From Psychromonas hadalis ATCC BAA-638 (GTDB taxonomy: Bacteria > Pseudomonadota > Gammaproteobacteria > Enterobacterales > Psychromonadaceae), in assembly GCF_000420245.1 (NCBI RefSeq), contig NZ_ATUO01000047.1, positions 1-24,000 on the forward strand: a stretch of 24,000 nucleotides of DNA. The letters are read 5' to 3'. The notes under the pieces are model-generated. The model was not told the DNA's origin and made no database searches. It saw only the letters and a program-made list of their open reading frames with translations. Positions 2,847-23,958 of this stretch are shown here, piece after piece. The position numbers were made by a program, and so were the translations under genes. How positions within the stretch are numbered: position 1 is the first letter of the stretch; every line of letters begins with the position of its first letter.

Positions 2847-3419
2847 ATGAAAATAGAAGACAGTGGCATGCCTGAAGAATTATATTGGAACAGCTTATTC
2901 AATATTAAAAGTATTATTGATTGGTTGGACATCCCGGAGAAATCCACAATCGTTGAAGTTGGGTTTGGTTACGGAACTTTTACGGTGCCTATTGCCGCCC
3001 TCAGCCCAAAAAATACGCTTGTTGCATTCGATATAGAGCCCGATATGGTTGAAATTGCTAGGCGCAATCTCTCTAATGCAGGCCTCTCTAATGTTGAATG
3101 TATTTTACGTGACGTTCTAGCCGAAGGAACTGCTCTTGAATCGGAAAGTGTTGATGTTGTTTTACTTTTCAATATCCTTCATTTCAATGAAAGAAATCTT
3201 CTGCTTCAAGAGACATCTCGCATTCTCAAGAAAGGCGGAATCGTTGCAATTATTCACTGGAGAAAAGATATCCCTACTCCACGAGGGCCTGCTATCGAGC
3301 TTCGACCAGACATTGCTCAAATCATGAGCGCATCGGAAGGGTTAGAATTGGCTTTTCATGGTAATAGCAAGGCGCTAAAGCCATATCATTGGGGGATCCA
3401 ACTAGTGAAAATGCCTTAA
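2847..3419 (+). CDS. Class I SAM-dependent methyltransferase (small-molecule type)
   Basis: 190-aa ORF. Motif I VEVGFGYGTFTVP, acidic post-I FDIEPDM, VVLLFNILHF, LKKGGIVAII. SD gaggt at 2838-2842. Confidence 0.8.
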   Translation: MKIEDSGMPEELYWNSLFNIKSIIDWLDIPEKSTIVEVGFGYGTFTVPIAALSPKNTLVAFDIEPDMVEIARRNLSNAGLSNVECILRDVLAEGTALESESVDVVLLFNILHFNERNLLLQETSRILKKGGIVAIIHWRKDIPTPRGPAIELRPDIAQIMSASEGLELAFHGNSKALKPYHWGIQLVKMP

Positions 3420-5152: not shown

Positions 5153-5584
5153 GTAACTACTCAGCACCTATCTCACACTTTTGATGGCTTATAGAGGATC
5201 AAAAAAGATCGACTTGCTTGATCCTTTTTAGCCGTTACTCTAAATACTTTCCTCCTACAGGCGTAACCCGCAGAATGAAAGTAAATGGTATCGATATTGA
5301 AAGTAATGTTGAACGCTTACAAAACTATGAAGATGATGTGCTCAGGTTTATGGTTGATAGGGAGGTTCCTTTTACCAATAATCAAGGAGAAAATGACTTG
5401 AGGATGGCAAAAGTTCAGCAAAAGATATCCGGTTGCTTTAGAAGTGAATATGGTGCCGAAATGTTTTTTGGCCTCAGAAGCTACCTATCTAGTTGTAAAA
5501 AGCAGGGAGTTAGTGCATCTACAGCTTTAGCGTTATTGCTAAAGGGTATGCTAGCAAATATTTTTACCTCTGCTGAGTAGTTAC
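5153..5584 (+). mobile_element. Internally deleted IS66-family element (432 bp, non-autonomous)
   Basis: Perfect 14-bp terminal inverted repeats gtaactactcagca (5153-5166) / tgctgagtagttac (5571-5584), beginning GTAA as in IS66-family ends. They enclose only the C-terminal part of a transposase. No target-site duplication is evident. Confidence 0.75.
5218..5580 (+). pseudogene. IS66-family transposase, C-terminal fragment only
   Basis: The ORF-track peptide contains VPFTNNQGENDLRM, KISGCFRS and GLRSYLSSCKKQG. I recognise these as the conserved C-terminus of single-ORF IS66-family transposases. The N-terminal 75 percent or more is missing, and the track start is a non-ATG codon. Confidence 0.7.
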
Positions 5585-12009: not shown

Positions 12010-12370
12010 AATGAATCCCCTGTTATTTGTGTGTGTTTATTCTAAGTGAACCAAGAAATTTCTGTTAGTGAAATGAATGGAAAGACTTATTTCTATTTTG
12101 GAAATGTTAAGGGCTAATACAATGAGTGTTAAAGATGAGGACTAGGATTTGTACAAGTTGTTGTGGTTAGTCTGAAAGAGTCCACTGCACAATTTAAGGC
12201 ATACGATACAGGAGGCTAATTCGCGACACCCTAAGATTCTAAATGGAAGTTATTGATTTTGTTGATATCAATATATGTCCCCGATTTATAATTAAATTTC
12301 AGTTTGTTATCACTGGTTAAATATTAACCGCTTCAAGTGTAATAGACTGTAATGTAGCGCGGTAATATAA

Positions 12371-12957
12371 GAAAGGTGCAGTAGATGGCTAGCCTCAATT
12401 AAGCTACATGGTTTACCGATACACCTTAATCAGAGTGAGTGGTCTTTTGTTGAAAATGAACAAGCATTTCAAGTGAGTGTGGCAGGAAATATAAAAGCCA
12501 ATGCATTAAATATTTTGATAAAAGCTGCGCTTAATGGCCATGGTATCGTACGTGTGCCCTACGGTCTTGCAAATCAATTGATTCAATCTTAACACCTACA
12601 TGCTCATTTAAACTGATACCATTGCGCTTAATATAATGATCAGGTTTTACGTAGGGTAAATTGCTAAGGTCAAGGCGCATGATTGAGTAATAAGCAAAAC
12701 GGTCATTGCGTACTGTTTGACGAAGTCAAATAGAGCAGCGGGCTATTACGATTGAATGCAACGCTGGTATTAGTAATTTAAACCAGTAAAAACGATCAGT
12801 TACTTAGGCGGATTGGTATGATTATACCCGTTGGCGATATTTTCTCTGGGCAGTTTATCTTTCGCGTAGTTATCAATCCCCCAAAGTACGTGCTTTTATT
12901 GATTTTTTAGTGCAAGAGTTTAAACAGGATATCTACCTAATATCACTTGAATCTTAA
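12371..12957 (+). pseudogene. Decayed LysR-family regulator, divergent from yjjI. Only effector-domain fragments remain, interrupted by a family-B repeat.
   Basis: Fragment 1 (12404-12589) reads LHGLPIHLNQSEWSFVENEQAFQVSVAGNIKANALNILIKAALNGHGIVRVPYGLANQLIQS and then stops. Fragment 2 (12820-12954, different frame) reads DYTRWRYFLWAVYLSRSYQSPKVRAFIDFLVQEFKQ..., the typical LysR C-terminus. No intact HTH lies upstream. Confidence 0.65.
12614..12819 (-). repeat. Family-B MITE-like element, copy B2, inserted in the LysR pseudogene
   Basis: Terminal inverted repeats ataccattgcgc (12614-12625) and gcggattggtat (12808-12819) match 10 of 12 when complemented. The 41-bp end 12779-12819 is nearly identical to B1. 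The coding sequence of the LysR C-terminus resumes exactly at 12820. Confidence 0.6.
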
Positions 12958-13244
12958 GCTCAAATGTACAGTTCTGAGTGCAGTAATTGATTCATTCTCA
13001 CTTTTATTACCATCAAATTGACACTAAAAAGTGTTGCTGGGGGGACTCTACTACTTTAACCATAATCCATCATTTATTAACGGAAGTGTAAATTAGTGTA
13101 AAGGTTGTCGTAGAACTTTGAAATAATCCAATAGGCGCACTAAGCTCTTTGAAAATGGATATTTTAAGGGAGCAATACTGTTAATAAACAGGTAAATGGA
13201 TGTATTACAGAGGGAAAACATTCAACACCAATTTGGAATAAACC

Positions 13245-13520
13245 ATGAAACTAGCCAATATATTACAAAATAAACCTAACCAACACGATACCTTAAGCAT
13301 AATTGAAGCAATCGAAAGTGATTTTAGCGAGACCGATAAAGTATTAATTAAAGCCGATTGGGTGATGCAAGATACCGTCGCGAAGTTACAAGCAAAAAAA
13401 TTATCAGAAGAAGATCGCCACATATTAATCAGCCAACTTAATGCAGCTATTACTTCAGTACAAATTCAGTTATATAATGGTAATAAAAGCGCACAAAATG
13501 ACGATAAAATCGTCGCGTAA
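13245..13520 (+). CDS. Hypothetical small protein (91 aa, predicted helical)
   Basis: Clean ORF in an otherwise non-coding stretch. No recognisable motif and a weak SD. Confidence 0.35.
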   Translation: MKLANILQNKPNQHDTLSIIEAIESDFSETDKVLIKADWVMQDTVAKLQAKKLSEEDRHILISQLNAAITSVQIQLYNGNKSAQNDDKIVA

Positions 13521-13569
13521 TGTAGCAAAACCAATCTTCACTAATCAGCAAAAGGAACTTGCTTGATTT

Positions 13570-13791
13570 ATACCAATCAGGATAAATAGCTGATCAATCT
13601 TACTGGTTAAAATAAACTACTTCATCGTTGAATATTTCGTAAAGGGAGCAACCCTTAAAGAATTAAAGTCTGTAATTTATTCTTCCGTTAGAGGATTAAC
13701 GCAGTTAATCTCTCGAAAGGGGAAATATTCGCCTTGAATTACCTTGTTTTTCCTGCGTAATATTAGATCACATACTTAACCCGATTGGTAT
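13570..13791 (+). repeat. Family-B MITE-like element, full-length copy B3 (222 bp)
   Basis: Terminal inverted repeats ataccaatcagg (13570-13581) / cccgattggtat (13780-13791) match 11 of 12. Positions 13636-13721 are about 85 percent identical by eye to the reverse complement of 18299-18384. Confidence 0.75.
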
Positions 13792-13913
13792 AACCTCTCA
13801 TATCCCTCTGTACTATTTCTGCTTAACGCTAATGATGTGATCTAACCTGCTGTTTCAAAATGCCTATTTTGTAGTATGAGTATTAGGTAATTAAATCAAA
13901 AGAGACAAAAACT

Positions 13914-14174
13914 ATGTCAGCTAAAAAGCATAAACGTAAAGCAGTGAAACATGTGGGTCAAGCCTACAAAAAAGTATCTACGCCTTCTTTGTTGCATCGT
14001 TACCCTAGACTAGGGTTAGTACTCAGTTTTGTGCTGCTGGTGGTCGGTATTTTGCTGTTAACTATCGGTTATGTTAGCAATGCAAGAGTTGGTTTAGCAA
14101 TGATTTCACTGTTCTTTGGCCTTGTCTTGGGTGTTTTTTCTAATGCAGCTTTACCCCAACAGCGTTCGCATTAG
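13914..14174 (+). CDS. Small membrane protein (86 aa): Lys-rich N-terminus plus two predicted TM helices
   Basis: MSAKKHKRKAVKH... followed by hydrophobic segments LGLVLSFVLLVVGILLLTIGYV and GLAMISLFFGLVLGVF. No family recognised. Confidence 0.5.
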   Translation: MSAKKHKRKAVKHVGQAYKKVSTPSLLHRYPRLGLVLSFVLLVVGILLLTIGYVSNARVGLAMISLFFGLVLGVFSNAALPQQRSH

Positions 14175-14270
14175 CAAATAATGGTTTCTGGGTATTAATC
14201 ATCAAAATGGCAATGTTGCTAATTGGAAAATTACAGCGTTGCTTTAATACTCTCTTTTATAATACTAATT

Positions 14271-14740
14271 GGGTGTAGTTCACCTCCCAGTGGTTAGTGG
14301 GTTAGTTGCCATTGAATGCAGAAAAATAGAATTTTTACCAATGATATGAACACGATTATTGAGACAAGCAGAGATCAAAGCGTACACACAACTCCCTTTC
14401 TATTTTATTGCTAAGTCATGCTTGCTTAGCAAGGTTCGACAGCGAATTATGCGTAGCATAATATCATACGCAGGTCGAAACTAAGCTCAACCAACACAGA
14501 GACGTGCTGTTTGAGCTGGTGCGTTATAAGCAATCAGGACGTGCAAGATAAAAAAATGGTAGGGCAGTCTTTCTTTTGGTTCCTTTTTCTTTGGCTGTTC
14601 AAAGAAAATGAACTCGCCAAAGGCGAAACACCCACTACAAAATAGATGACGCCCCCGTTAAGATACTTATATCCATTCTTTAATGGATATGTTTTTTATT
14701 GATTTAAATTATTTTTACTCGACTCAAAAGAACTACACCC
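14271..14740. repeat. 470-bp inverted-repeat-bounded, highly structured intergenic element
   Basis: Perfect 11-bp inverted repeat gggtgtagttc (14271-14281) / gaactacaccc (14730-14740), with aatt-containing flanks. Internal hairpins include ttgctaag/cttagcaa (14408-14415 / 14425-14432) and nested ttcgac/gtcgaa with tgcgta/tacgca (14435-14479). Confidence 0.5.
14669..14697 (+). terminator. Terminator-like hairpin plus T-tract, about 135 nt upstream of the lysine-catabolic operon
   Basis: 9-bp perfect stem atatccatt (14669-14677) / aatggatat (14682-14690), loop cttt, then g-tttttt (14692-14697). The stem is AT-rich, so stability is modest. Confidence 0.45.
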
Positions 14741-14832
14741 ATATTAATTGGAGCCTGTTTTAACGGGTAGTGGAAAAAGTTGGCTGTGCTGTCTATATTT
14801 TAACTAAGGAAAACTCAAAATAAGGAGGAAAC

Positions 14833-18287: not shown

Positions 18288-18296
18288 GAGAGATTT

Positions 18297-18450
18297 GGCC
18301 CTTTCATAGATTAATTACGTTAATCCTCTAGCGGTAGAATTAAATTAAAGATTTTAATTCTTTAATTGTTGTTCCCTTTACGAAACTTATAACGAAGAAG
18401 TAAGTTATTTTAACCCGTAAAATAGACCCGCTATTTATTCCGATTGCTAT
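18297..18450 (-). repeat. Family-B MITE-like element, copy B4 (about 154 bp, truncated), inverted relative to B3
   Basis: The reverse complement begins atagcaatcggaataaatagc... (compare B3 ataccaatcaggataaatagc...) and continues ...ttcgtaaagggaacaacaattaaagaattaaaatc...agaggattaacgtaattaatc. It abuts the ALDH stop codon by about 10 nt and lacks the last 70 bp or so of B3. Confidence 0.7.
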
Positions 18451-18703
18451 TAATAGTTACCCATGAATGTCGTCAAAGGTAATCGATAATAAATCTGATA
18501 TCTACTTATTATAACAATCTAATTATTTTGTGAATAATCTCGTCATCTTTTTTTGTTGTAAATCATCATTTCCTCTAAAATTAGAGCATTAGCAAATAAA
18601 ACCAACCACAAAGTGCTACTGTTAATCTCATCATTTTTATGTCTTTATATAGTCTAGAAACATAAAATAATGACACATAACGATTAGAGGCGCAAAGGTA
18701 ACC

Positions 18704-20494
18704 ATGTCAGCCAATTTCTATAATAAAAATGCCGATCAACTCGCCGAGATGTACCTATCAAAAACATTTGAGCAGATTCATCAGCCTTGGCTTGAATACT
18801 TAATACCTGTGTTAAATAAACCCAATGCGCGAATTTTAGATTTAGGTGCGGGCTCAGGGCGAGATAGCAAATATTTAGCAGAGCAAGGCACGGCTAACAA
18901 TATTCATGTTACCGCAGTAGAGCCCGCACAAATGTTGGCTAATCTAGGCAAAAAACACACCCAAGGCCTAAACGTAACTTGGCTACAAGACACACTTCCT
19001 GATTTAACGACCGTGACCAAACAAGAGGTCAGTTATGACTTGATACTACTCAGCGCCGTGTGGATGCATATCCCCGACTCGCAACGTCAACGCTCATTAC
19101 GCAAATTGGCCAATCTACTCAAACCCGGTGGCAAACTGGTTATCTCACTACGCCATGGCCCAAGTGGTGATGAATTCAGTAATGTGCCACGCCGCATGTT
19201 TGCTGTGTGTAGTGATCAACTTATTCAGATGGGTAAAACATTTGGGCTATCAGTTTTATTAGAAACAGAGCTAAATGCAGATGTTCTCGGCAGGACAGAA
19301 ATAACATGGCAAACCGTGGTGTTGCAACTGCCAGATGATGGCAGTGGTGCATTCCCCTTTATCCGCCATGTTGCACTTAACGATGGTAAATCAGCAACCC
19401 ATAAATTGGCTTTAATGCGTGTTTTATTACGTATCGCAGATGGTCATCCCGGTGCGGTTATTCGCCGAGAAGATAATCGTGTGATATTGCCTGTTGGGCT
19501 GGTGGCTTTATACTGGGCACATCAATACAAAGACTTAATTGACAAACATCAGCTGTTTCAAAGCCCCAATAAAAACATCAATATGGGATTTATGAAAGCG
19601 AACGGTTGGCATCAATTAACTCAGCTACAAGCCTCTGATTATCGTATAGGAAACTTGTTTAGTGGTGATAATGCAAAAGCGATGTTTAAGATGCTTTCAG
19701 CCAGTGTCAGTAATATTAAAAACATGCCCTGTAAATTTATCACCTACCCGAACAGTGAAAAGAGCGTGTTTGAAGTGCACAGTAAAACCGTTCGCGCTAA
19801 AGACAGTTTATTTTTAGATCTCACTAGCTTAAATGCCTGGGGTGAGTTTTCAATACCGGAGCATTTATGGATTGCTTTTAGTCGCTACGCTTGTTGGATT
19901 GAACCAGTGTTAATTTCTGAATGGGTGAAAACCATGGCCGGTTATCAGGGTAACAAACAATACCAAGCACCCGAACAACAGCATAAATTATACACTGCGT
20001 TAAATTGGTTAGAAGCCAAACGCAGTACCACTGAGGTACGCAATCGTTTTGATAATTTACAAAAAGTAAAAGGTAATCAGCATAACTGCGTGTGGACAGA
20101 TAAAAGCTTAAAACAACAATACGCGATAGATCACTGCATGCCCTTTGCGCGTTGGCCTAATAATGACCTATGGAATTTATTACCCAGTGATGTGACGGTG
20201 AATGGTCAAAAAAGTGATCACTTGCCAACAGAATTAAAAATGAAAAATGCCAAACAGCGTATTACCGATTGGTGGTCAGATGCATGGCTGAATGAGGCCA
20301 ATGAAAGCTGCCTTGATATAAAGAAGGAGAGCCTTCAGCCCAAGGTAAGCAGCCACAGTCAACGTTTCTTTGCGGAGGCGAATATTGCCTTGCCCGGTTT
20401 AGATTCAAGTAACCATTCTGTTGATGATTTGTTTGAAGCGCTGCTATTACAAAGAGGGCGTTTGAAAGAGATGCAACAGTTGAGGGAATGGTGA
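18704..20494 (+). CDS. Three-part protein: N-terminal class I SAM methyltransferase, unrecognised middle region of about 250 aa, C-terminal HNH nuclease
   Basis: 596 aa. MTase motif I ILDLGAGSGRD (aa 44-54), VTAVEP, YDLILLSAVWMHIP, LKPGGKLVISL. HNH signature at aa 462-506: CVWTDKSLKQQYAIDHCMPFARWPNNDLWNLLPSDVTVNGQKSDH (nt 20087-20221). SD aaagg lies 5 nt before the ATG. Confidence 0.75.
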   Translation: MSANFYNKNADQLAEMYLSKTFEQIHQPWLEYLIPVLNKPNARILDLGAGSGRDSKYLAEQGTANNIHVTAVEPAQMLANLGKKHTQGLNVTWLQDTLPDLTTVTKQEVSYDLILLSAVWMHIPDSQRQRSLRKLANLLKPGGKLVISLRHGPSGDEFSNVPRRMFAVCSDQLIQMGKTFGLSVLLETELNADVLGRTEITWQTVVLQLPDDGSGAFPFIRHVALNDGKSATHKLALMRVLLRIADGHPGAVIRREDNRVILPVGLVALYWAHQYKDLIDKHQLFQSPNKNINMGFMKANGWHQLTQLQASDYRIGNLFSGDNAKAMFKMLSASVSNIKNMPCKFITYPNSEKSVFEVHSKTVRAKDSLFLDLTSLNAWGEFSIPEHLWIAFSRYACWIEPVLISEWVKTMAGYQGNKQYQAPEQQHKLYTALNWLEAKRSTTEVRNRFDNLQKVKGNQHNCVWTDKSLKQQYAIDHCMPFARWPNNDLWNLLPSDVTVNGQKSDHLPTELKMKNAKQRITDWWSDAWLNEANESCLDIKKESLQPKVSSHSQRFFAEANIALPGLDSSNHSVDDLFEALLLQRGRLKEMQQLREW

Positions 20495-20666
20495 AGAACA
20501 AGTGTAATAATGTGTAATCGTAAGTTGATGGGGTTTTCTGTAATATATTTCGGTTAACTTTATGATTTTAAAAGATGTAAGGTATAGATGTCCTTTTTTT
20601 CCTATTTTAAAACCTTTCTATTAGTGTTTTCGGTGACGTTTATAATTTTAATGGAATTAAACAATT

Positions 20667-21695
20667 ATGAGTAAATATTTTAATTCAGACTCAATAATAA
20701 CAGAGCATATTTCAGAGGCTCAGTTGAAAGCTTACTTTGTAGGGTTTGATTTTGGCGTTTTTCGTTATGAAGCTTTAACTAATAAGATAATGGAAGCGAT
20801 TGTTGATTTTGCTTTTGGTTGCCATGAAGGGATATTAAGTACGTATAAATTAGCCGAGTTGAGAGACGCTGCCCAGTTAATATATAAAATTGAAGAATAT
20901 GATCCTAATAATAAAAATCACCTCAAAAAAGGGAACATACCTTATAAAAATGCCGAAGAATTTAAAGAGTCAAGGTATTACAACCGGGGGGAGTTTGGGG
21001 AGCTTATTTTACACCTTATTCTTAGAGATTTTATGGAGACGACTCCTTTACTATCAAAAATATTTATGAAAGATTCTACTGGAATTACAGTAAAAGGCTT
21101 AGATGCCGTTCATATTGGTCGCGATCTCTCCGACCCAACAAAGAAGTCATTGTATTTAGGCGAATCCAAATTACATAGAACAGGAGAAACTGGTGTCAAA
21201 GAGCTTTTAAAGGATGTCAAAGAGCATTTTAACCGTAATTTTTTAAAAGGAGAGTTTCTCTTAATCGGAAATAAAAAAAACAATTTTTTGCCAATAGATG
21301 AATACAAAGATAAAAATACTATTGATGACTATAAAGAGTTTATAAAGGAAAAAAATTACTGGTATAACAAGTTAAAAGCGGTTCAAAAAGGAGAAGAAAA
21401 ATTACAGGATATTTTTTCTTCTGTGACAATACCAATGATTTGCACTTATACATCCGCTCTCTTTGAAACACATACAGACGAAAGTACAGATGAATTTAAA
21501 AGTGAATTCAAAAAAGAGATCGAATCTTTACAGAAAAAATTTCAAGACGGTGTTGAGTTAATTAAACAAAATGCTACGGTAGGTGAGCCAATTGCAACAG
21601 ACTTAAATATCATTTTAATGTTGTTTCCAATTCCGGATAAAAAAATTCTAGTGAAAAAATTACACGAAAAATTATCTCATCAGCAAAGGGCTTAA
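20667..21695 (+). CDS. hamA: HamA-like (DUF1837-type) PD-(D/E)xK nuclease effector of a Hachiman-type defence system
   Basis: 342 aa. GEFGELILHL (E109/E112), GLDAVHI (D146) and LGESKLH (E166-x-K168) give a D...ExK nuclease arrangement. It lies immediately upstream of an SF2 helicase (1-nt gap). Low-GC, K/N/I/F-rich composition. Confidence 0.7.
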   Translation: MSKYFNSDSIITEHISEAQLKAYFVGFDFGVFRYEALTNKIMEAIVDFAFGCHEGILSTYKLAELRDAAQLIYKIEEYDPNNKNHLKKGNIPYKNAEEFKESRYYNRGEFGELILHLILRDFMETTPLLSKIFMKDSTGITVKGLDAVHIGRDLSDPTKKSLYLGESKLHRTGETGVKELLKDVKEHFNRNFLKGEFLLIGNKKNNFLPIDEYKDKNTIDDYKEFIKEKNYWYNKLKAVQKGEEKLQDIFSSVTIPMICTYTSALFETHTDESTDEFKSEFKKEIESLQKKFQDGVELIKQNATVGEPIATDLNIILMLFPIPDKKILVKKLHEKLSHQQRA

Positions 21696-21696
21696 A

Positions 21697-23958
21697 ATGG
21701 ATTTTGACAAGATAATAGAAAGACTTTTAAAAGACGAAGCACTTTCTTTTAATGAAAGCTTTTTAATTGCAAGTACTTGCTCTATCTATTTGGACGATAA
21801 AAATTCTGAAAATGATGGACGTCGTATTATCATAAATATACTAGAGCAATTAAAAAAAATACCTTTAGAGACTTATGAAATATGGACTGATTTGATTGAA
21901 ATTGCAGGATTTTATCCATATTTAGAAAAAGAAAAGAAGCATTTAAAGCTAACTAGTATTCCAGCAAGAGTTAGAAAGGCATATCATATTTCTAACAATT
22001 TAGAAGGAATGTATTTTCAAGAAGAACAAAAATATCTTTTAGATTTATTGAGTAAAGACAAAAATGTAGTTGTAAGTGCACCAACTAGTTTTGGAAAGAG
22101 TTTGTTGATTGAAGAGATTGTCGCTTCTAAAAAATACAAAAATATAGTCATTATTCAACCAACCCTTGCATTATTGGATGAAACTCGACGTAAATTACTT
22201 AAATATAAAGATAGTTATAAAATCATTGTCCGCACATCGCAAGAGCCGTCTCCAGACAAAGGCAATCTGTTTTTATTAACAGCAGAAAGAGTGTATGAGT
22301 ACCTTGAATTTCCACATATCGACTTCTTAATTATCGATGAGTTTTATAAGTTAAGTGGAAAACGAAAAGATCCACGTGCAGATGTGTTGAATAGCTCGTT
22401 TTATAAACTTTACAATAAATTTAAATGTAGATTTTATCTCCTTGGTCCTAACATTGACGGAATCTCAGATGGTTTTGAAAAGCAATACAATGCAATTTTT
22501 TTTAAAACTGATTATAGCCTTGTTGATTGTGTCGTTAAGGACATTTTTAATTCCAAAGGAATCCCTTATATAGGTAAGGCCAAAAGAGAAAAATTATTTG
22601 AATTGTTAATAAGTAAACTCGACGAGCAAACAATTATTTTCTGCGCATCACCAGATGGTGCATTAAAATTGTCTATTGAGTTCATGTTGTTTTTAGAACA
22701 TAAAAATATGAAATTCAATGAGGTAGATGTTCCGCTTACTGAGTGGCTTTATGAAAATATTTCTAAAGAATGGGGGTATATTCCATTATTGAAGAATGGA
22801 ATAGGCGTTCATGTGGGGTCATTACCAAAACATATAACGTCATCAGTAATCGATTACTTTAATTCTGGTAAATTAAAGTTTTTATTTTGTACAACAACAA
22901 TTATTGAAGGTGTCAACACGAGTGCAAAAAATATGGTTTTTTTTGATAATAAAAAAGGAAAAAACATAAAAATTGATTACTTTGATTATGCAAATATAAA
23001 GGGTCGTTCTGGAAGGTTAATGATTCATTATACAGGCAATATGTATAATTTTAATCTAGTTCCCGAGAAAACAAATCTTGTCATAGATATCCCATTTTTT
23101 GATCAGAAATCAATTACAGCAGAAGTGCTAATTAATCTTAAAAAAGAAGATGTTATAGACAAAGAAACCGACACCTATAAATTTCTCGAATCATTGTCAA
23201 TACAAGAGCGCGAATTATATGCAAAGAACTCGATGCCGATTCATGGGCAGAAAGCCCTCTTTGATTATTTAAAAGAAAATTATATTGAAAATTCAAGCTT
23301 ATTTAATTGGACTTCATTACCTACCTACGAACAGTTAAATTTTGTTTTAGATAAGTCTTGGGAGTTTTTAAAGGCAGATGAGGAAAGGCTAGATCCCATT
23401 CTCTCAGCAAATCAATTATGTAGAAGTACGAACAATTTTGTAAGGAATCAAAAAACATTAAAAGGGATAATATTAGCAAACATTAGTGAGCATAAAGTAA
23501 ATAGAGGTGAAATTCAAAAGCATCTTAAAGATGGAAATTATGAAATTTCTAAATGGTTACGGGGCAAGCCAAAATCATATGGATGTATGAGTGATAATGA
23601 ATTAATTCACCTTTCTATCAATGATGCTCTTAAATTAAAAAAGAATGTTTTTGAATATAAATTACCCAAATGGTTGAAAACGTTTAATTCAATACAAGAA
23701 GCTGTTTGCAAGCATTTTGGAGATAAAGCTGGAAATTATCTTCATTACGCGAATATTATAGAAAATGACTTTATGCAAGAAAATTTAGCAATACTAGCTG
23801 AGTTTGGAATACCAAGTAGTGCAATTAGTAAATTGCAAAAGTATATACCAGACAATATGAATGAAGATGAGATATTAGGTTTTATTAGCTCTAGAGGTCT
23901 ATTGAATAAAGCAAATCTTATTAACTATGAAAAAGTAAAAGTAGAGGAGAATCTTTAG
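21697..23958 (+). CDS. hamB: HamB-like superfamily-2 helicase of a Hachiman-type defence system
   Basis: 753 aa. Walker A SAPTSFGKS (K134), motif Ia IIQPTLAL, Walker B/DExx LIIDEFY (D214-E215), motif V TTTIIEGVNT, motif VI NIKGRSGR. About 280 aa of C-terminal extension. The ATG lies 1 nt after the hamA stop. Confidence 0.75.
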   Translation: MDFDKIIERLLKDEALSFNESFLIASTCSIYLDDKNSENDGRRIIINILEQLKKIPLETYEIWTDLIEIAGFYPYLEKEKKHLKLTSIPARVRKAYHISNNLEGMYFQEEQKYLLDLLSKDKNVVVSAPTSFGKSLLIEEIVASKKYKNIVIIQPTLALLDETRRKLLKYKDSYKIIVRTSQEPSPDKGNLFLLTAERVYEYLEFPHIDFLIIDEFYKLSGKRKDPRADVLNSSFYKLYNKFKCRFYLLGPNIDGISDGFEKQYNAIFFKTDYSLVDCVVKDIFNSKGIPYIGKAKREKLFELLISKLDEQTIIFCASPDGALKLSIEFMLFLEHKNMKFNEVDVPLTEWLYENISKEWGYIPLLKNGIGVHVGSLPKHITSSVIDYFNSGKLKFLFCTTTIIEGVNTSAKNMVFFDNKKGKNIKIDYFDYANIKGRSGRLMIHYTGNMYNFNLVPEKTNLVIDIPFFDQKSITAEVLINLKKEDVIDKETDTYKFLESLSIQERELYAKNSMPIHGQKALFDYLKENYIENSSLFNWTSLPTYEQLNFVLDKSWEFLKADEERLDPILSANQLCRSTNNFVRNQKTLKGIILANISEHKVNRGEIQKHLKDGNYEISKWLRGKPKSYGCMSDNELIHLSINDALKLKKNVFEYKLPKWLKTFNSIQEAVCKHFGDKAGNYLHYANIIENDFMQENLAILAEFGIPSSAISKLQKYIPDNMNEDEILGFISSRGLLNKANLINYEKVKVEENL

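What the first reader, a model, noticed from the sequence alone, without database searches (positions are those of the whole stretch)
18704..20494. Methyltransferase / unknown domain / HNH nuclease fusion next to Hachiman: candidate undescribed single-gene defence or modification system
The 596-aa ORF has three parts.

(1) aa 1-210 form a class I SAM-MTase fold (ILDLGAGSGRD, VTAVEP, YDLILLSAVWMHIP, LKPGGKLVISL). I find no (D/N/S)PP(Y/F/W) tetrapeptide and no PC...ENV motifs. It therefore does not look like a canonical N6A, N4C or 5mC DNA methyltransferase and resembles small-molecule or RNA-type enzymes.

(2) aa ~215-460 (beginning FPFIRHVALNDGKSATHKLALMRVLLRIADG) match nothing I recognise.

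(3) aa 462-506 carry a clear beta-beta-alpha-Me/HNH signature (C-x13-DH-x8-NN-x3-N-x8-N-x5-H).

A methyl donor enzyme and a nuclease on one polypeptide follows the logic of self-marking plus cleavage, as in Type IIG enzymes, but here with a non-standard MTase. The gene sits on the same strand as a Hachiman pair and 172 nt upstream of it, which is the usual guilt-by-association signal for defence function. Its composition looks host-like while the Hachiman genes are lower in GC, so it is probably an independent unit.
Basis: partly seen in the sequence, partly recalled or inferred. Interest (0 to 1): 0.8.

Follow-up and report, generated by a model that had tools for sequence, protein, structure and literature searches.

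The report
Uncharacterised methyltransferase-HNH nuclease in defence islands
The 596-aa gene is real and belongs to a large, unnamed bacterial protein family that joins a SAM-binding methyltransferase domain, a confidently modelled domain with no known structural relative, and a Cas9-type HNH nuclease; it sits among anti-phage genes in many phyla, so it is a good but untested candidate immune nuclease, probably not a restriction-modification-style self-marking enzyme.

Summary
The ORF (18704-20494, +) and its three parts are confirmed. The window is from Psychromonas hadalis. The protein belongs to a widespread family that carries only generic names (>2,600 clusters at 90% identity, >1,000 at 50%, several phyla). 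The HNH catalytic residues are invariant. The methyltransferase domain is of the small-molecule/RNA type and its SAM-binding motifs are invariant in most members. The ~250-aa middle module models confidently (pLDDT 87) but matches nothing in PDB or BFVD.

The Type IIG-like "self-marking plus cleavage" idea is disfavoured. The methyltransferase domain has decayed or is absent in several lineages whose HNH stays intact, and the reverse is never seen.

Best reading: a self-contained immune DNA nuclease, with middle+HNH as its core and the SAM-binding domain as an accessory regulator or modifier. The function is untested. Interest 0.62.

The parts
18704..20494 (+). Whole ORF, 596 aa: methyltransferase / unknown module / HNH protein
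   Evidence: ORF list. 100% match to P0001 from Psychromonas hadalis. DNA homology to 8 related loci is confined to exactly this interval.
18704..19327 (+). aa 1-208: class I SAM-dependent methyltransferase domain of small-molecule/RNA type
   Evidence: Pfam Methyltransf_25/23/12/11/31 above their cut-offs. Motif I LDxGAGxGRD, motif II E73 and motif III D96, plus SAVWMH and R128/R130/R133/K134/R150, are invariant in 47-50 fused members. Foldseek neighbours are FPP-MTase, METTL6, UbiG, RdmB and ArsM; no DNA methyltransferase appears in the top 50.
19328..20083 (+). aa 209-460: conserved alpha/beta module of unknown fold; starts with invariant LPDDGTG and a basic helix (K229, T232, K234, R239, R243) followed by a beta-hairpin
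   Evidence: No Pfam, NCBIfam or PADLOC hit. The AF2 model of aa 205-596 has pLDDT 87.1 and pTM 0.89. No match in PDB or BFVD at E<=1e-3, and no PDB sequence-profile hit. Mean identity is 77% among orthologues and 50% across phyla.
20084..20233 (+). aa 461-510: Cas9-type (HNH_4) beta-beta-alpha-Me nuclease motif
   Evidence: Pfam HNH_4 24.8 bits against a cut-off of 22. The profile aligns to the Cas9 HNH domain with DH, N and N..K in register. D476, H477, N491, N500 and K503 are invariant in 54 of 54 diverse members.
20234..20491 (+). aa 511-596: C-terminal helices (W523-W524; RFFAEANIALPGL...QRxRLKEMQQLREW), interrupted by a hypervariable linker at aa 530-552 (20291-20359)
   Evidence: Per-region identity: linker 11-14%, C-terminal segment 85% among orthologues. 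The AF2 model packs these helices into one unit with the middle module (pTM 0.89).
20495..20666 (.). Junction: the start of the variable cargo slot, immediately after the stop codon
   Evidence: Orthologues all end ...CAGTTGAGAGAATGG + stop and diverge by cargo type straight after it. No terminator-like site was found here. GC is 26%.
20667..23958 (+). Hachiman pair hamA (20667-21695) and hamB (21697-23958): independent, recently acquired cargo occupying the slot
   Evidence: Pfam HamA 2.3e-35; PADLOC HamA 7e-90 and HamB 8e-223. GC is 30-32% against 42% for the target. A different, highly diverged Hachiman occupies the same slot in L024.
18288..18703 (.). 416-nt AT-rich upstream intergenic region (29% GC), presumably holding the gene's own promoter; the housekeeping lysine-catabolism-type genes end here
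   Evidence: Sequence read. Only weak promoter-like matches, at the frequency seen in shuffled sequence. No homology to the upstream regions of other loci. Upstream genes are HGLS, saccharopine dehydrogenase and aldehyde dehydrogenase.

Best explanation
The gene encodes a self-contained nuclease of a large, uncharacterised family that lives in defence islands and on mobile elements. It most likely acts as a stand-alone anti-phage or anti-plasmid DNA nuclease.

The constant core is the ~390-aa C-terminal unit. This is a new alpha/beta module with a basic helix-plus-hairpin that probably binds nucleic acid, and it carries a Cas9-type HNH active site that cuts DNA. The N-terminal class I methyltransferase domain binds SAM and is an accessory part. 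It either gates the nuclease according to SAM or a methyl-acceptor ligand, or methylates something other than DNA in the canonical way. It is not an obligatory self-protecting DNA methylase.

In P. hadalis the gene is a long-resident, host-adapted gene. The low-GC Hachiman pair is separate cargo dropped into the exchangeable slot that begins at the gene's stop codon.

Shown: architecture, conservation, family distribution, genomic contexts, cargo exchange, and independence from Hachiman. Inferred: nuclease activity on DNA, the immune role, and the regulatory role of the SAM domain.
For: Architecture and conservation:
- The three parts are confirmed.
- The HNH residues DH/N/N/K are invariant in 54 of 54 members from several phyla.
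- The SAM-binding motifs are invariant in 47-50 fused members.
- The only poorly conserved region is the linker at aa 530-552.

Family size:
- 1,075 clusters at 50% identity.
- 2,621 clusters at 90% identity.
- 182 reference species.
- Only generic names in the source databases.

No partner gene and no shared flanks, even within the genus.

Context in 80 orthologue loci:
- The +1 gene is of defence or regulator type in at least 25 of 77 loci, against 7 of 72 for the -1 gene.

Context of distant members (35-40% identity):
- 2 nt after hsdR of a type I R-M system.
- Beside Kiwa and an IS110 element.
- After an Ssp-like cluster, with TIR-NB-ARC and an integrase nearby.
- Next to small PLD or SNase nucleases.
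- McrBC on a plasmid.
- dGTPase and NERD.
- After ArdC on a conjugative element.
- DISARM-like and Mza cassettes.

Mobility: present on 21 plasmid records, absent from the phage collection, and one partial hit in IMG/VR.

The nuclease is the core. Five cluster representatives have a decayed motif I, and several members lack the domain altogether, yet all keep DH...N...N. The only 'HNH-less' full-length members are frameshifted.

Cargo is exchanged independently of the gene. GC is 42.4% against 30-32% for Hachiman.
Against: - There is no experimental evidence of any kind.
- PADLOC v2 has no model for the protein. Only the SAM-binding core resembles mad2.
- The protein is unusually well conserved for a defence gene (63-83% across genera), its GC is host-like, and its divergence tracks taxonomy. 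All of this would also fit a housekeeping enzyme that merely borders a hotspot.
- Two distant members sit alone among metabolic operons.
- About half of the 80 loci had no defence gene among the few clusters I could annotate.
- The nucleic-acid-binding role of the middle module rests only on charge pattern and secondary structure.
- Foldseek was weak even for the true HNH homology (E ~0.2). A known fold could therefore have been missed, and the more sensitive libraries were unavailable.
Confidence: 0.5

Rival explanations
1. Bystander reading. The protein is a conserved cellular enzyme, for example an RNA- or small-molecule methyltransferase with an attached nuclease for some housekeeping nucleic-acid transaction. 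It merely forms one conserved border of a recombination hotspot. Defence cassettes accumulate beside it because conserved flanks favour homologous exchange, not because it takes part in defence.
For: - GC is host-like.
- Identity tracks taxonomy across 182 species.
- Very strong purifying selection acts on all domains.
- The gene co-diverges with a second conserved flank gene, and a variable slot lies between them, including four 'empty' slots.
- Core genes (aldehyde dehydrogenase, photolyase, NadA) lie directly upstream in some loci.
- Two distant members sit among metabolic operons.
Against: - No synteny is kept on either side, even within Psychromonas. This is unusual for a core gene.
- The defence and mobile-element association recurs in unrelated phyla and on plasmids, where the Alteromonadales hotspot cannot explain it.
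- The other 'flank' gene is itself a type IV restriction enzyme.
- The methyltransferase domain decays in some lineages while the nuclease is retained. That is odd for an enzyme whose main job is methylation.
Confidence: 0.2
2. The protein is a Type IIG-like single-chain restriction-modification enzyme. The methyltransferase domain marks host DNA with an unusual methyl mark, the middle module reads DNA, and the HNH cuts unmarked incoming DNA.
For: - Methyltransferase and nuclease lie on one polypeptide.
- The SAM-binding residues are invariant in the main clade.
- The best PADLOC hit of the methyltransferase core is mad2 (1.3e-19). mad2 is the predicted DNA N6-adenine methyltransferase of MADS (bioRxiv 10.1101/2023.03.30.534895).
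Against: - There is no (D/N/S)PP(Y/F/W) motif and no PCQ/ENV pair.
- The post-beta4 motif SAVWMH is the small-molecule type, and no DNA methyltransferase appears among the top 50 structural neighbours.
- No target-recognition domain was detected.
- The methyltransferase has decayed (P0145, P0157, P0175, P0240, P0262) or is absent (P0123, P0151, P0170, P0370, and plasmid homologues) while the HNH stays intact. No linked methylase was seen in the standalone loci I examined.
- The putative recognition module is nearly invariant across genera. R-M specificity modules diversify.
Confidence: 0.12
3. Island-maintenance or cassette-exchange factor. The HNH acts like a homing or addiction nuclease. It either stabilises the island or plasmid that carries it, or cuts at the slot to stimulate replacement of the downstream cassette.
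For: - Cargo of four unrelated types starts exactly at the stop codon, overlapping it by 7-10 nt in five loci.
- Cassettes are exchanged between genera while the gene itself is not.
- Standalone relatives sit on plasmids near rep/par genes with a small upstream gene, an arrangement that looks like a toxin-antitoxin pair.
- One orthologue is cargo of a conjugative element.
Against: - No repeated target site or flanking repeats were found.
- The 3' end of the gene shows no elevated identity in pairs that share cargo.
- Distant members lack the slot pattern.
- The small upstream genes are unrelated to one another.
- Homologous recombination between conserved flanks is enough to explain the exchange.
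Confidence: 0.08

Closest known systems
Type IIG / IIL single-chain restriction-modification enzymes (e.g. MmeI, BpuSI)
   Same: A SAM-dependent methyltransferase domain and a nuclease lie on one polypeptide. SAM may be needed for, or may regulate, cleavage.
   Different: Those enzymes carry an N6-adenine DNA methyltransferase with NPPY-type motif IV, a target-recognition domain and a PD-(D/E)XK nuclease. This protein has a small-molecule/RNA-type methyltransferase, an HNH nuclease, an unknown middle module, and lineages in which the methyltransferase is dispensable.
Type IV / modification-dependent HNH restriction enzymes (ScoMcrA, VcaM4I EVE-HNH, wH-HNH fusions, GmrSD ParB-HNH)
   Same: A single protein joins a sensor domain to an HNH-type nuclease. 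These enzymes are well conserved and live in defence islands (PMC6765204, PMC7897488, PMC11037411, known).
   Different: No SRA, EVE/PUA, YTH, DpnI-type wH or ParB reader was detected by Pfam or Foldseek. None of those enzymes carries a fused SAM methyltransferase domain.
Cas9 HNH domain (Pfam HNH_4)
   Same: The same HNH subfamily, with catalytic D-H, N and N..K aligned. It is the best structural match for this part.
   Different: Only the ~50-aa nuclease motif is shared. There is no RuvC domain, REC lobe or guide-RNA apparatus.
Mad2 of the MADS system
   Same: Best PADLOC hit, 1.3e-19, over the SAM-binding core at aa 26-156. Mad2 is the predicted methylase of a methylation-based defence system.
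   Different: Only positions 276-403 of the 492-position mad2 profile align. The other seven mad genes are absent from the window, and the architecture is different.
Defence hotspots flanked by conserved genes (core defence hotspots, integration hotspots such as the one holding MADS)
   Same: There is a variable slot with interchangeable defence cassettes between conserved flanks, with both empty and occupied states. The MADS preprint describes such a hotspot.
   Different: Both conserved flanks here are themselves nuclease genes. One is the target. The other is a PLD-helicase-DUF3427 type IV enzyme.

Membership tests
Class I SAM-dependent methyltransferase fold | Rossmann-like fold with motif I (E/D-x-G-x-G-x-G), an acidic residue at the end of beta2, and motif III | tested here: met
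   Five Pfam methyltransferase families score above their cut-offs. LDLGAGSGRD, E73 and D96 are invariant. There are 688 PDB matches at E<=1e-3, all methyltransferases among the top 50.
DNA methyltransferases of R-M systems (N6A/N4C/5mC) | Catalytic motif IV (D/N/S)PP(Y/F/W), or PCQ together with ENV | tested here: not met
   A regex search finds none. The only 'PCK' lies in the middle module and has no ENV partner. The motif-IV position reads SAVWMH.
DNA methyltransferases of R-M systems (N6A/N4C/5mC) | Closest structural relatives are DNA methyltransferases, and a target-recognition domain is present | tested here: not met
   The top 50 Foldseek PDB neighbours are small-molecule or RNA methyltransferases. 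The only PADLOC MTase_II hit is at E=0.025.
Type IIG single-chain R-M | The methyltransferase is obligatorily coupled to an active nuclease for self-protection | tested here: not met
   Five cluster representatives have a decayed motif I and several members lack the domain, yet all keep an intact HNH. No intact member has lost the HNH.
HNH / beta-beta-alpha-Me nucleases, HNH_4 (Cas9-type) | Profile match above threshold, with conserved catalytic D-H, N and N | tested here: met
   HNH_4 scores 24.8 bits against a cut-off of 22 and 23-41 bits in relatives. D476, H477, N491, N500 and K503 are invariant in 54 of 54. The profile aligns with the Cas9 HNH domain.
HNH / beta-beta-alpha-Me nucleases, HNH_4 (Cas9-type) | Metal-dependent nuclease activity | not testable with these tools
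   Needs biochemistry.
Type IV modification-dependent restriction enzymes | A recognised modified-base reader domain (SRA, EVE/PUA, YTH, DUF3427, DpnI-type wH) fused to the nuclease | tested here: inconclusive
GmrSD-like ParB-HNH enzymes | N-terminal ParB/DUF262 NTPase fold | tested here: not met
   No ParBc or DUF262 hit in Pfam. No ParB or Srx structure appears among the PDB matches.
Hachiman | Is HamA (DUF1837) or HamB (helicase), or is consistently linked to them | tested here: not met
   The target matches no Ham model. Hachiman is the next gene in only 2 of 77 loci. GC is discordant.
MADS | Full-length match to a mad protein, with the other mad genes present | tested here: not met
   Only profile positions 276-403 of 492 of mad2 align. 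The window contains no other mad genes.
Any catalogued defence system (PADLOC-DB v2.0) | Full-length match to a model of a known or candidate system | tested here: not met
   Apart from the methyltransferase core, the only hits are weak local ones to Cas9 and PDC-M01B over the HNH (E 0.005-0.02). Newer catalogues could not be searched.

The most novel reading that the evidence does not exclude
The family is a new kind of single-polypeptide immune nuclease. A small-molecule-type SAM-binding methyltransferase domain, not a DNA methylase, controls a Cas9-type HNH through a previously unseen ~250-aa fold. One possible mechanism is that the domain reports the cell's SAM/SAH state, which would make it a guard against phage SAM-degrading anti-restriction enzymes. 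Another is that it methylates a non-DNA ligand. Either way, the nuclease would fire only during infection.

A corollary is that, together with a convergent type IV enzyme, the protein frames a conserved 'socket' into which marine gammaproteobacteria plug interchangeable defence cassettes.
Probability: 0.18. Interest if true: 0.85.

Novelty: new variant of a known kind. Interest (0 to 1): 0.62.

Why it matters
If the protein is an immune nuclease, it adds a very widespread family to the defence repertoire: more than 1,000 clusters at 50% identity, spread over many phyla and plasmids. Current catalogues do not flag it, and genome annotation labels it simply 'methyltransferase'. Its domain logic differs from R-M enzymes, because the methyltransferase fold is not a DNA methylase and can be lost. 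Its central module has a confidently predicted fold with no solved relative. The gene is also a practical landmark: in Alteromonadales, the DNA just after its stop codon is a rich and easily mined source of known and unknown defence cassettes.

Tried and rejected
- **ParB/DUF262 idea for the 'DDGTG...R' start.** Rejected: no Pfam or structural support.
- **Recombination breakpoint inside the gene's 3' end.** Suggested by a BLAST block that starts 134 nt before the stop codon. Rejected: identity in the tail, including at third codon positions, is not elevated in the pair that shares cargo.
- **Mobile single-gene cassette with flanking repeats.** None found.
- **Conserved small partner gene upstream of the standalone relatives.** The small proteins are unrelated across phyla.
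- **Link to the window's other small methyltransferase (2847-3419).** Only generic similarity, 25% identity.
- **tRNA, tmRNA or Rfam element as an integration site.** None in the window.
- **Promoter or terminator between the target and hamA.** Nothing above the level seen in shuffled sequence.
- **Literature.** No paper describing this architecture was found.
- **Per-protein PADLOC counts for all neighbours.** I used aggregated scans and cluster-level annotation instead, so the counts are lower bounds.
Full report
**Observation.** It is 100% identical to a Psychromonas hadalis protein that NCBI names only 'class I SAM-dependent methyltransferase'. Every quoted motif is present, including C-x13-DH-x8-NN-x3-N-x8-N-x5-H at aa 462-506. 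There is no [DNS]PP[YFW] and no ENV. Pfam finds generic class I methyltransferase families at aa 44-150 and HNH_4 at aa 469-508 (24.8 bits, cut-off 22). It finds nothing for aa ~210-460, and NCBIfam and PADLOC add nothing specific. The downstream genes are a complete Hachiman pair (HamA 7e-90, HamB 8e-223), 172 nt away. One correction: H506 is R in most orthologues. The conserved HNH core is D476-H477, N491, N500, K503, the Cas9-type pattern.

**The family.** Full-length relatives at 63-83% identity occur across Psychromonas, Colwellia, Moritella, Thalassomonas, Paraglaciecola, Pseudoalteromonas and Shewanella. A scan of reference genomes found 182 species, and identity falls with taxonomic distance. 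An exhaustive search with only aa 205-596 found 1,075 clusters at 50% identity, 638 of them at E<=1e-10. A profile search found 2,621 clusters at 90% identity, from Beta-, Gamma- and Deltaproteobacteria, Chloroflexi and Acidobacteriota, all with generic names. Members at 37-45% identity keep methyltransferase + middle + HNH_4. The family is on 21 plasmid or chromid records, on no phage record, and on one partial viral contig among 2.9 million.

**Conservation.** Across 54 diverse sequences, D476, H477, N491, N500 and K503 are invariant. So are D212, G213, G215, R221, K229, T232, K234, R239 and R243 at the start of the middle module. Only the linker at aa 530-552 is free to vary, at 11-14% identity. 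In the 47-50 members that carry the N-terminal domain, motif I (LDxGAGxGRD), E73, D96, SAVWMH and a basic cluster (R128, R130, R133, K134, R150) are invariant.

**Structure.** With a shallow alignment, the full-length model was mediocre (pLDDT 68.9). With a diverse alignment, aa 205-596 modelled as one compact unit (pLDDT 87.1, pTM 0.89). Foldseek against PDB and BFVD gave no match at E<=1e-3. The only recognisable element was the Cas9 or phage HNH, at E ~0.2. A sequence profile against PDB chains likewise found only the Cas9 HNH (best E 0.0024). The module opens with a long basic helix followed by a beta-hairpin. That arrangement is compatible with a winged-helix-like nucleic-acid-binding element, but this is inference. 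The methyltransferase domain's 50 best structural neighbours are small-molecule or RNA enzymes (FPP-MTase, METTL6, UbiG, RdmB/DnrK, ArsM, cap N7-MTase), and none is a DNA methyltransferase. More sensitive fold libraries were unavailable.

**Is it linked to Hachiman?** No.
- GC is 42.4% (GC3 39.9) for the target and 43.2% for the neighbouring aldehyde dehydrogenase, against 31.8% and 29.8% (GC3 27.7 and 23.9) for hamA and hamB.
- DNA homology between the window and eight related loci begins and ends at the ORF boundaries, at 69-77% identity, with neither flank shared.
- Only one other locus, L024, has Hachiman in the same position, and it is a highly diverged variant at 36% and 24% identity.

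**Neighbourhoods of 80 orthologue loci.** I called ORFs and clustered all flanking proteins. Both flanks are variable, but blocks recur downstream:
- A PLD-ResIII-DUF3427 protein (PADLOC type IV REase, 1e-221), in 16 loci.
- NERD nucleases, in 13 and 5 loci.
- WYL regulators, in 8 loci.
- A DrmA-containing four-gene block.
- A TIR+SLOG five-gene block.
- UvrD+Zn-ribbon helicase, HipA, dGTPase-like HD protein, and Dcm.

Counting only the 18 clusters I could annotate, which gives a lower bound, the +1 gene is of defence or regulator type in 25 of 77 loci against 7 of 72 for the -1 gene. In 37 of 80 loci there is at least one defence-type gene within ±6 genes. Three further loci read with precomputed Pfam labels all fit the pattern: one follows ArdC at the end of a conjugative T4SS block, one precedes a NERD-helicase/DrmA-like/MZB cassette, and one precedes Mza. 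In some loci the -1 gene is plainly core: photolyase, NadA, or aldehyde dehydrogenase as in this window.

**A cassette slot at the stop codon.** All orthologues end ...CAG TTG AGA GAA TGG + stop, and the sequences diverge by cargo type immediately afterwards. In five loci, carrying four unrelated cargo types, the first cargo gene overlaps the stop by 7-10 nt. Overall, 54 of 77 downstream genes are co-directional, with a median gap of 120 nt.

Cargo and gene have separate histories. L002 (Psychromonas) and L022 (Psychrosphaera) share 67% identity in the gene but 79-96% in the TIR-SLOG cassette. L001 and L003 share 80% in the gene but only ~30% in four of the five Mza genes.

A BLAST block that seemed to start inside the gene's 3' end proved to be ordinary coding conservation. 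Tail identity in that pair is 66.7% overall and 37.5% at third codon positions, which is below the average for all pairs.

In 15 loci the PLD-helicase-DUF3427 gene lies downstream of the target and convergent to it, with 0-5 cargo genes between them. Four of these are 'empty' slots of 17-46 nt. That gene co-diverges with the target: 72-96% against 67-90%. The window ends 42 nt after hamB, so the far side of the slot in P. hadalis cannot be seen.

**Distant members.** Seven relatives at 35-40% identity were located.

| Locus | Context |
|---|---|
| L081 | small PLD nuclease 27 nt upstream, plus a Prim-Pol element |
| L082 | SNase 25 nt upstream |
| L083 | Ssp-like phosphorothioation cluster upstream; TIR-NB-ARC, a toxin-antitoxin pair, a transposase and an integrase nearby |
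| L085 | starts 2 nt after hsdR of a type I R-M system |
| L087 | IS110 upstream and Kiwa downstream |
| L084, L086 | alone among metabolic operons |

Plasmid copies lie near McrBC and VapBC and near dGTPase and NERD. More distant standalone relatives (22-26% identity; Nostoc, Tolypothrix, Deinococcus, Hymenobacter plasmids) lack any methyltransferase. Each follows a small 79-94-aa gene, but these small proteins are unrelated across phyla. No partner gene is therefore conserved. The unit is the single gene, and its company is defence genes and mobile elements in independent lineages.

Five cluster representatives (P0145, P0157, P0175, P0240, P0262) keep the methyltransferase fold but have lost the glycine loop of motif I and the H of VWMH, yet keep DH...N...N. 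P0123, P0151, P0170 and P0370 lack the domain entirely. Conversely, every apparently HNH-less full-length member either has a variant spelling of the motif or a frameshifted, garbled C-terminus. The nuclease unit is thus the invariant core, and the methyltransferase is accessory.

**Interpretation.** The evidence favours a self-contained nuclease that takes part in conflicts with mobile DNA, at about 0.5 confidence. I infer that the middle module positions or activates the HNH on nucleic acid. I also infer that the SAM-binding domain, strongly conserved in the main clade, regulates or complements this rather than marking self DNA.

- The methyltransferase is not a DNA type.
- It can decay while the nuclease persists.
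- The would-be specificity module is nearly invariant across genera.

The main rival, at about 0.2, is that the protein is a conserved cellular enzyme that merely flanks a hotspot. Host-like GC, taxonomy-tracking divergence and two solitary loci support that view. The absence of synteny within the genus, and the repeated defence and mobile-element company in unrelated phyla, argue against it. A role in island maintenance or cassette exchange is possible but has no direct support.

**Novelty and value.** Pfam, NCBIfam, PADLOC v2 and the literature I could search contain no description of this family. It is best classed as a new variant of a known kind: a sensor-nuclease defence enzyme with an unprecedented domain combination and an unassigned fold. 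If the SAM domain proves to be a metabolic sensor or to act on a non-DNA substrate, the mechanism would be new. All functional claims await the experiments listed above.

Noticed in passing
L030:11908-15170, L031, L033, L044 (empty slots); L010, L011, L015, L018, L019, L022, L036, L037, L040, L056, L071 (occupied): A conserved PLD-ResIII-DUF3427 gene (PADLOC type IV REase, 1e-221) lies convergent to the methyltransferase-HNH gene. It co-diverges with that gene, and the two together frame a slot holding 0-5 interchangeable cargo genes.
   Followed up: yes
L002:9796-15016 and L022:2449-7667: A five-gene cassette that starts with a TIR+SLOG protein is 79-96% identical between Psychromonas arctica and a Psychrosphaera MAG, although the adjacent target gene is only 67% identical. 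PADLOC gives only a weak PDC-S66 hit, so this may be an undescribed defence cassette.
   Followed up: partly
L009:11848-14471 and L079:11860-14471: A Moritella block of four small genes (clusters 13, 24, 25, 63) sits directly downstream of the target. The two members scanned against PADLOC gave no hit, and the one also scanned against Pfam gave none either.
   Followed up: partly
L020:5782-15400, L027, L032; L096:9887-17778: A recurrent cassette combines a NERD-helicase (which matches a DRT-associated PADLOC model), a DrmA-like helicase and, in L096, an MZB-domain protein, plus two unannotated genes. It looks like a DISARM-like variant with no methylase in view.
   Followed up: partly
L088:6268-8125, L091:4726-6146, L092:4726-6140, L093:4603-6122: Distant standalone middle+HNH relatives on plasmids from four phyla are each preceded, 17-70 nt upstream, by a small 79-94-aa gene. 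The small proteins are unrelated across phyla, and the Hymenobacter one is an HTH_17 protein. This may be a regulator or antitoxin-like arrangement.
   Followed up: partly
L081:9432-9974 and L082:9257-9976: In two distant members a small nuclease gene lies 25-27 nt upstream and co-directional: PLDc_2 (180 aa) in L081 and SNase (239 aa) in L082. They may form two-gene operons.
   Followed up: partly
L085:2956-11695: In Rheinheimera the family member starts 2 nt after the stop of hsdR in a complete type I R-M operon (hsdM, hsdS, hsdR).
   Followed up: no
L095:1-10774: In Parashewanella the gene lies at the end of a conjugative T4SS block, directly after an ArdC-type anti-restriction gene. A CTD10-domain gene follows and overlaps its stop codon.
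   Followed up: no
L083:4186-9702: An Ssp-like phosphorothioation cluster (cysteine desulfurase, DUF4007, a 1063-aa protein, and a short 116-aa PAPS-reductase fragment) lies immediately upstream of a family member. TIR-NB-ARC-WD40, TacA-acetyltransferase, a transposase and an integrase are nearby.
   Followed up: no
L087:8765-14775: A family member with a shortened N-terminus (501 aa, no methyltransferase hit) sits next to an IS110 transposase and upstream of KwaA/KwaB. The IS element may have truncated it.
   Followed up: no
L012 and L034: MAG contigs labelled Marinifilaceae (Bacteroidota) and Poseidoniales archaeon carry Colwellia-like copies at 64% and 62% identity. These are most likely binning errors rather than cross-domain transfer.
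   Followed up: no
window 5218-5580: A 120-aa ORF matches only the C-terminal end of an IS66-family transposase. It is a transposase fragment sitting in otherwise housekeeping DNA.
   Followed up: no
window 2847-3419: A standalone 190-aa class I methyltransferase. It is only generically related to the target's methyltransferase domain (25% identity over 110 aa).
   Followed up: yes
window 12010-14830: An ORF-poor stretch of lower GC (34-37%) between the YjjI/YjjW pair and the HGLS / saccharopine dehydrogenase / aldehyde dehydrogenase genes. It holds only two small ORFs (13245-13520, and 13914-14174, which looks like a membrane protein). No tRNA or Rfam element was found.
   Followed up: partly
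one of the -1 neighbours in alignment A5 (locus not identified): One gene immediately upstream of an orthologue matches PADLOC mad3 of MADS (8.6e-32), while the target's methyltransferase core best matches mad2.
   Followed up: no
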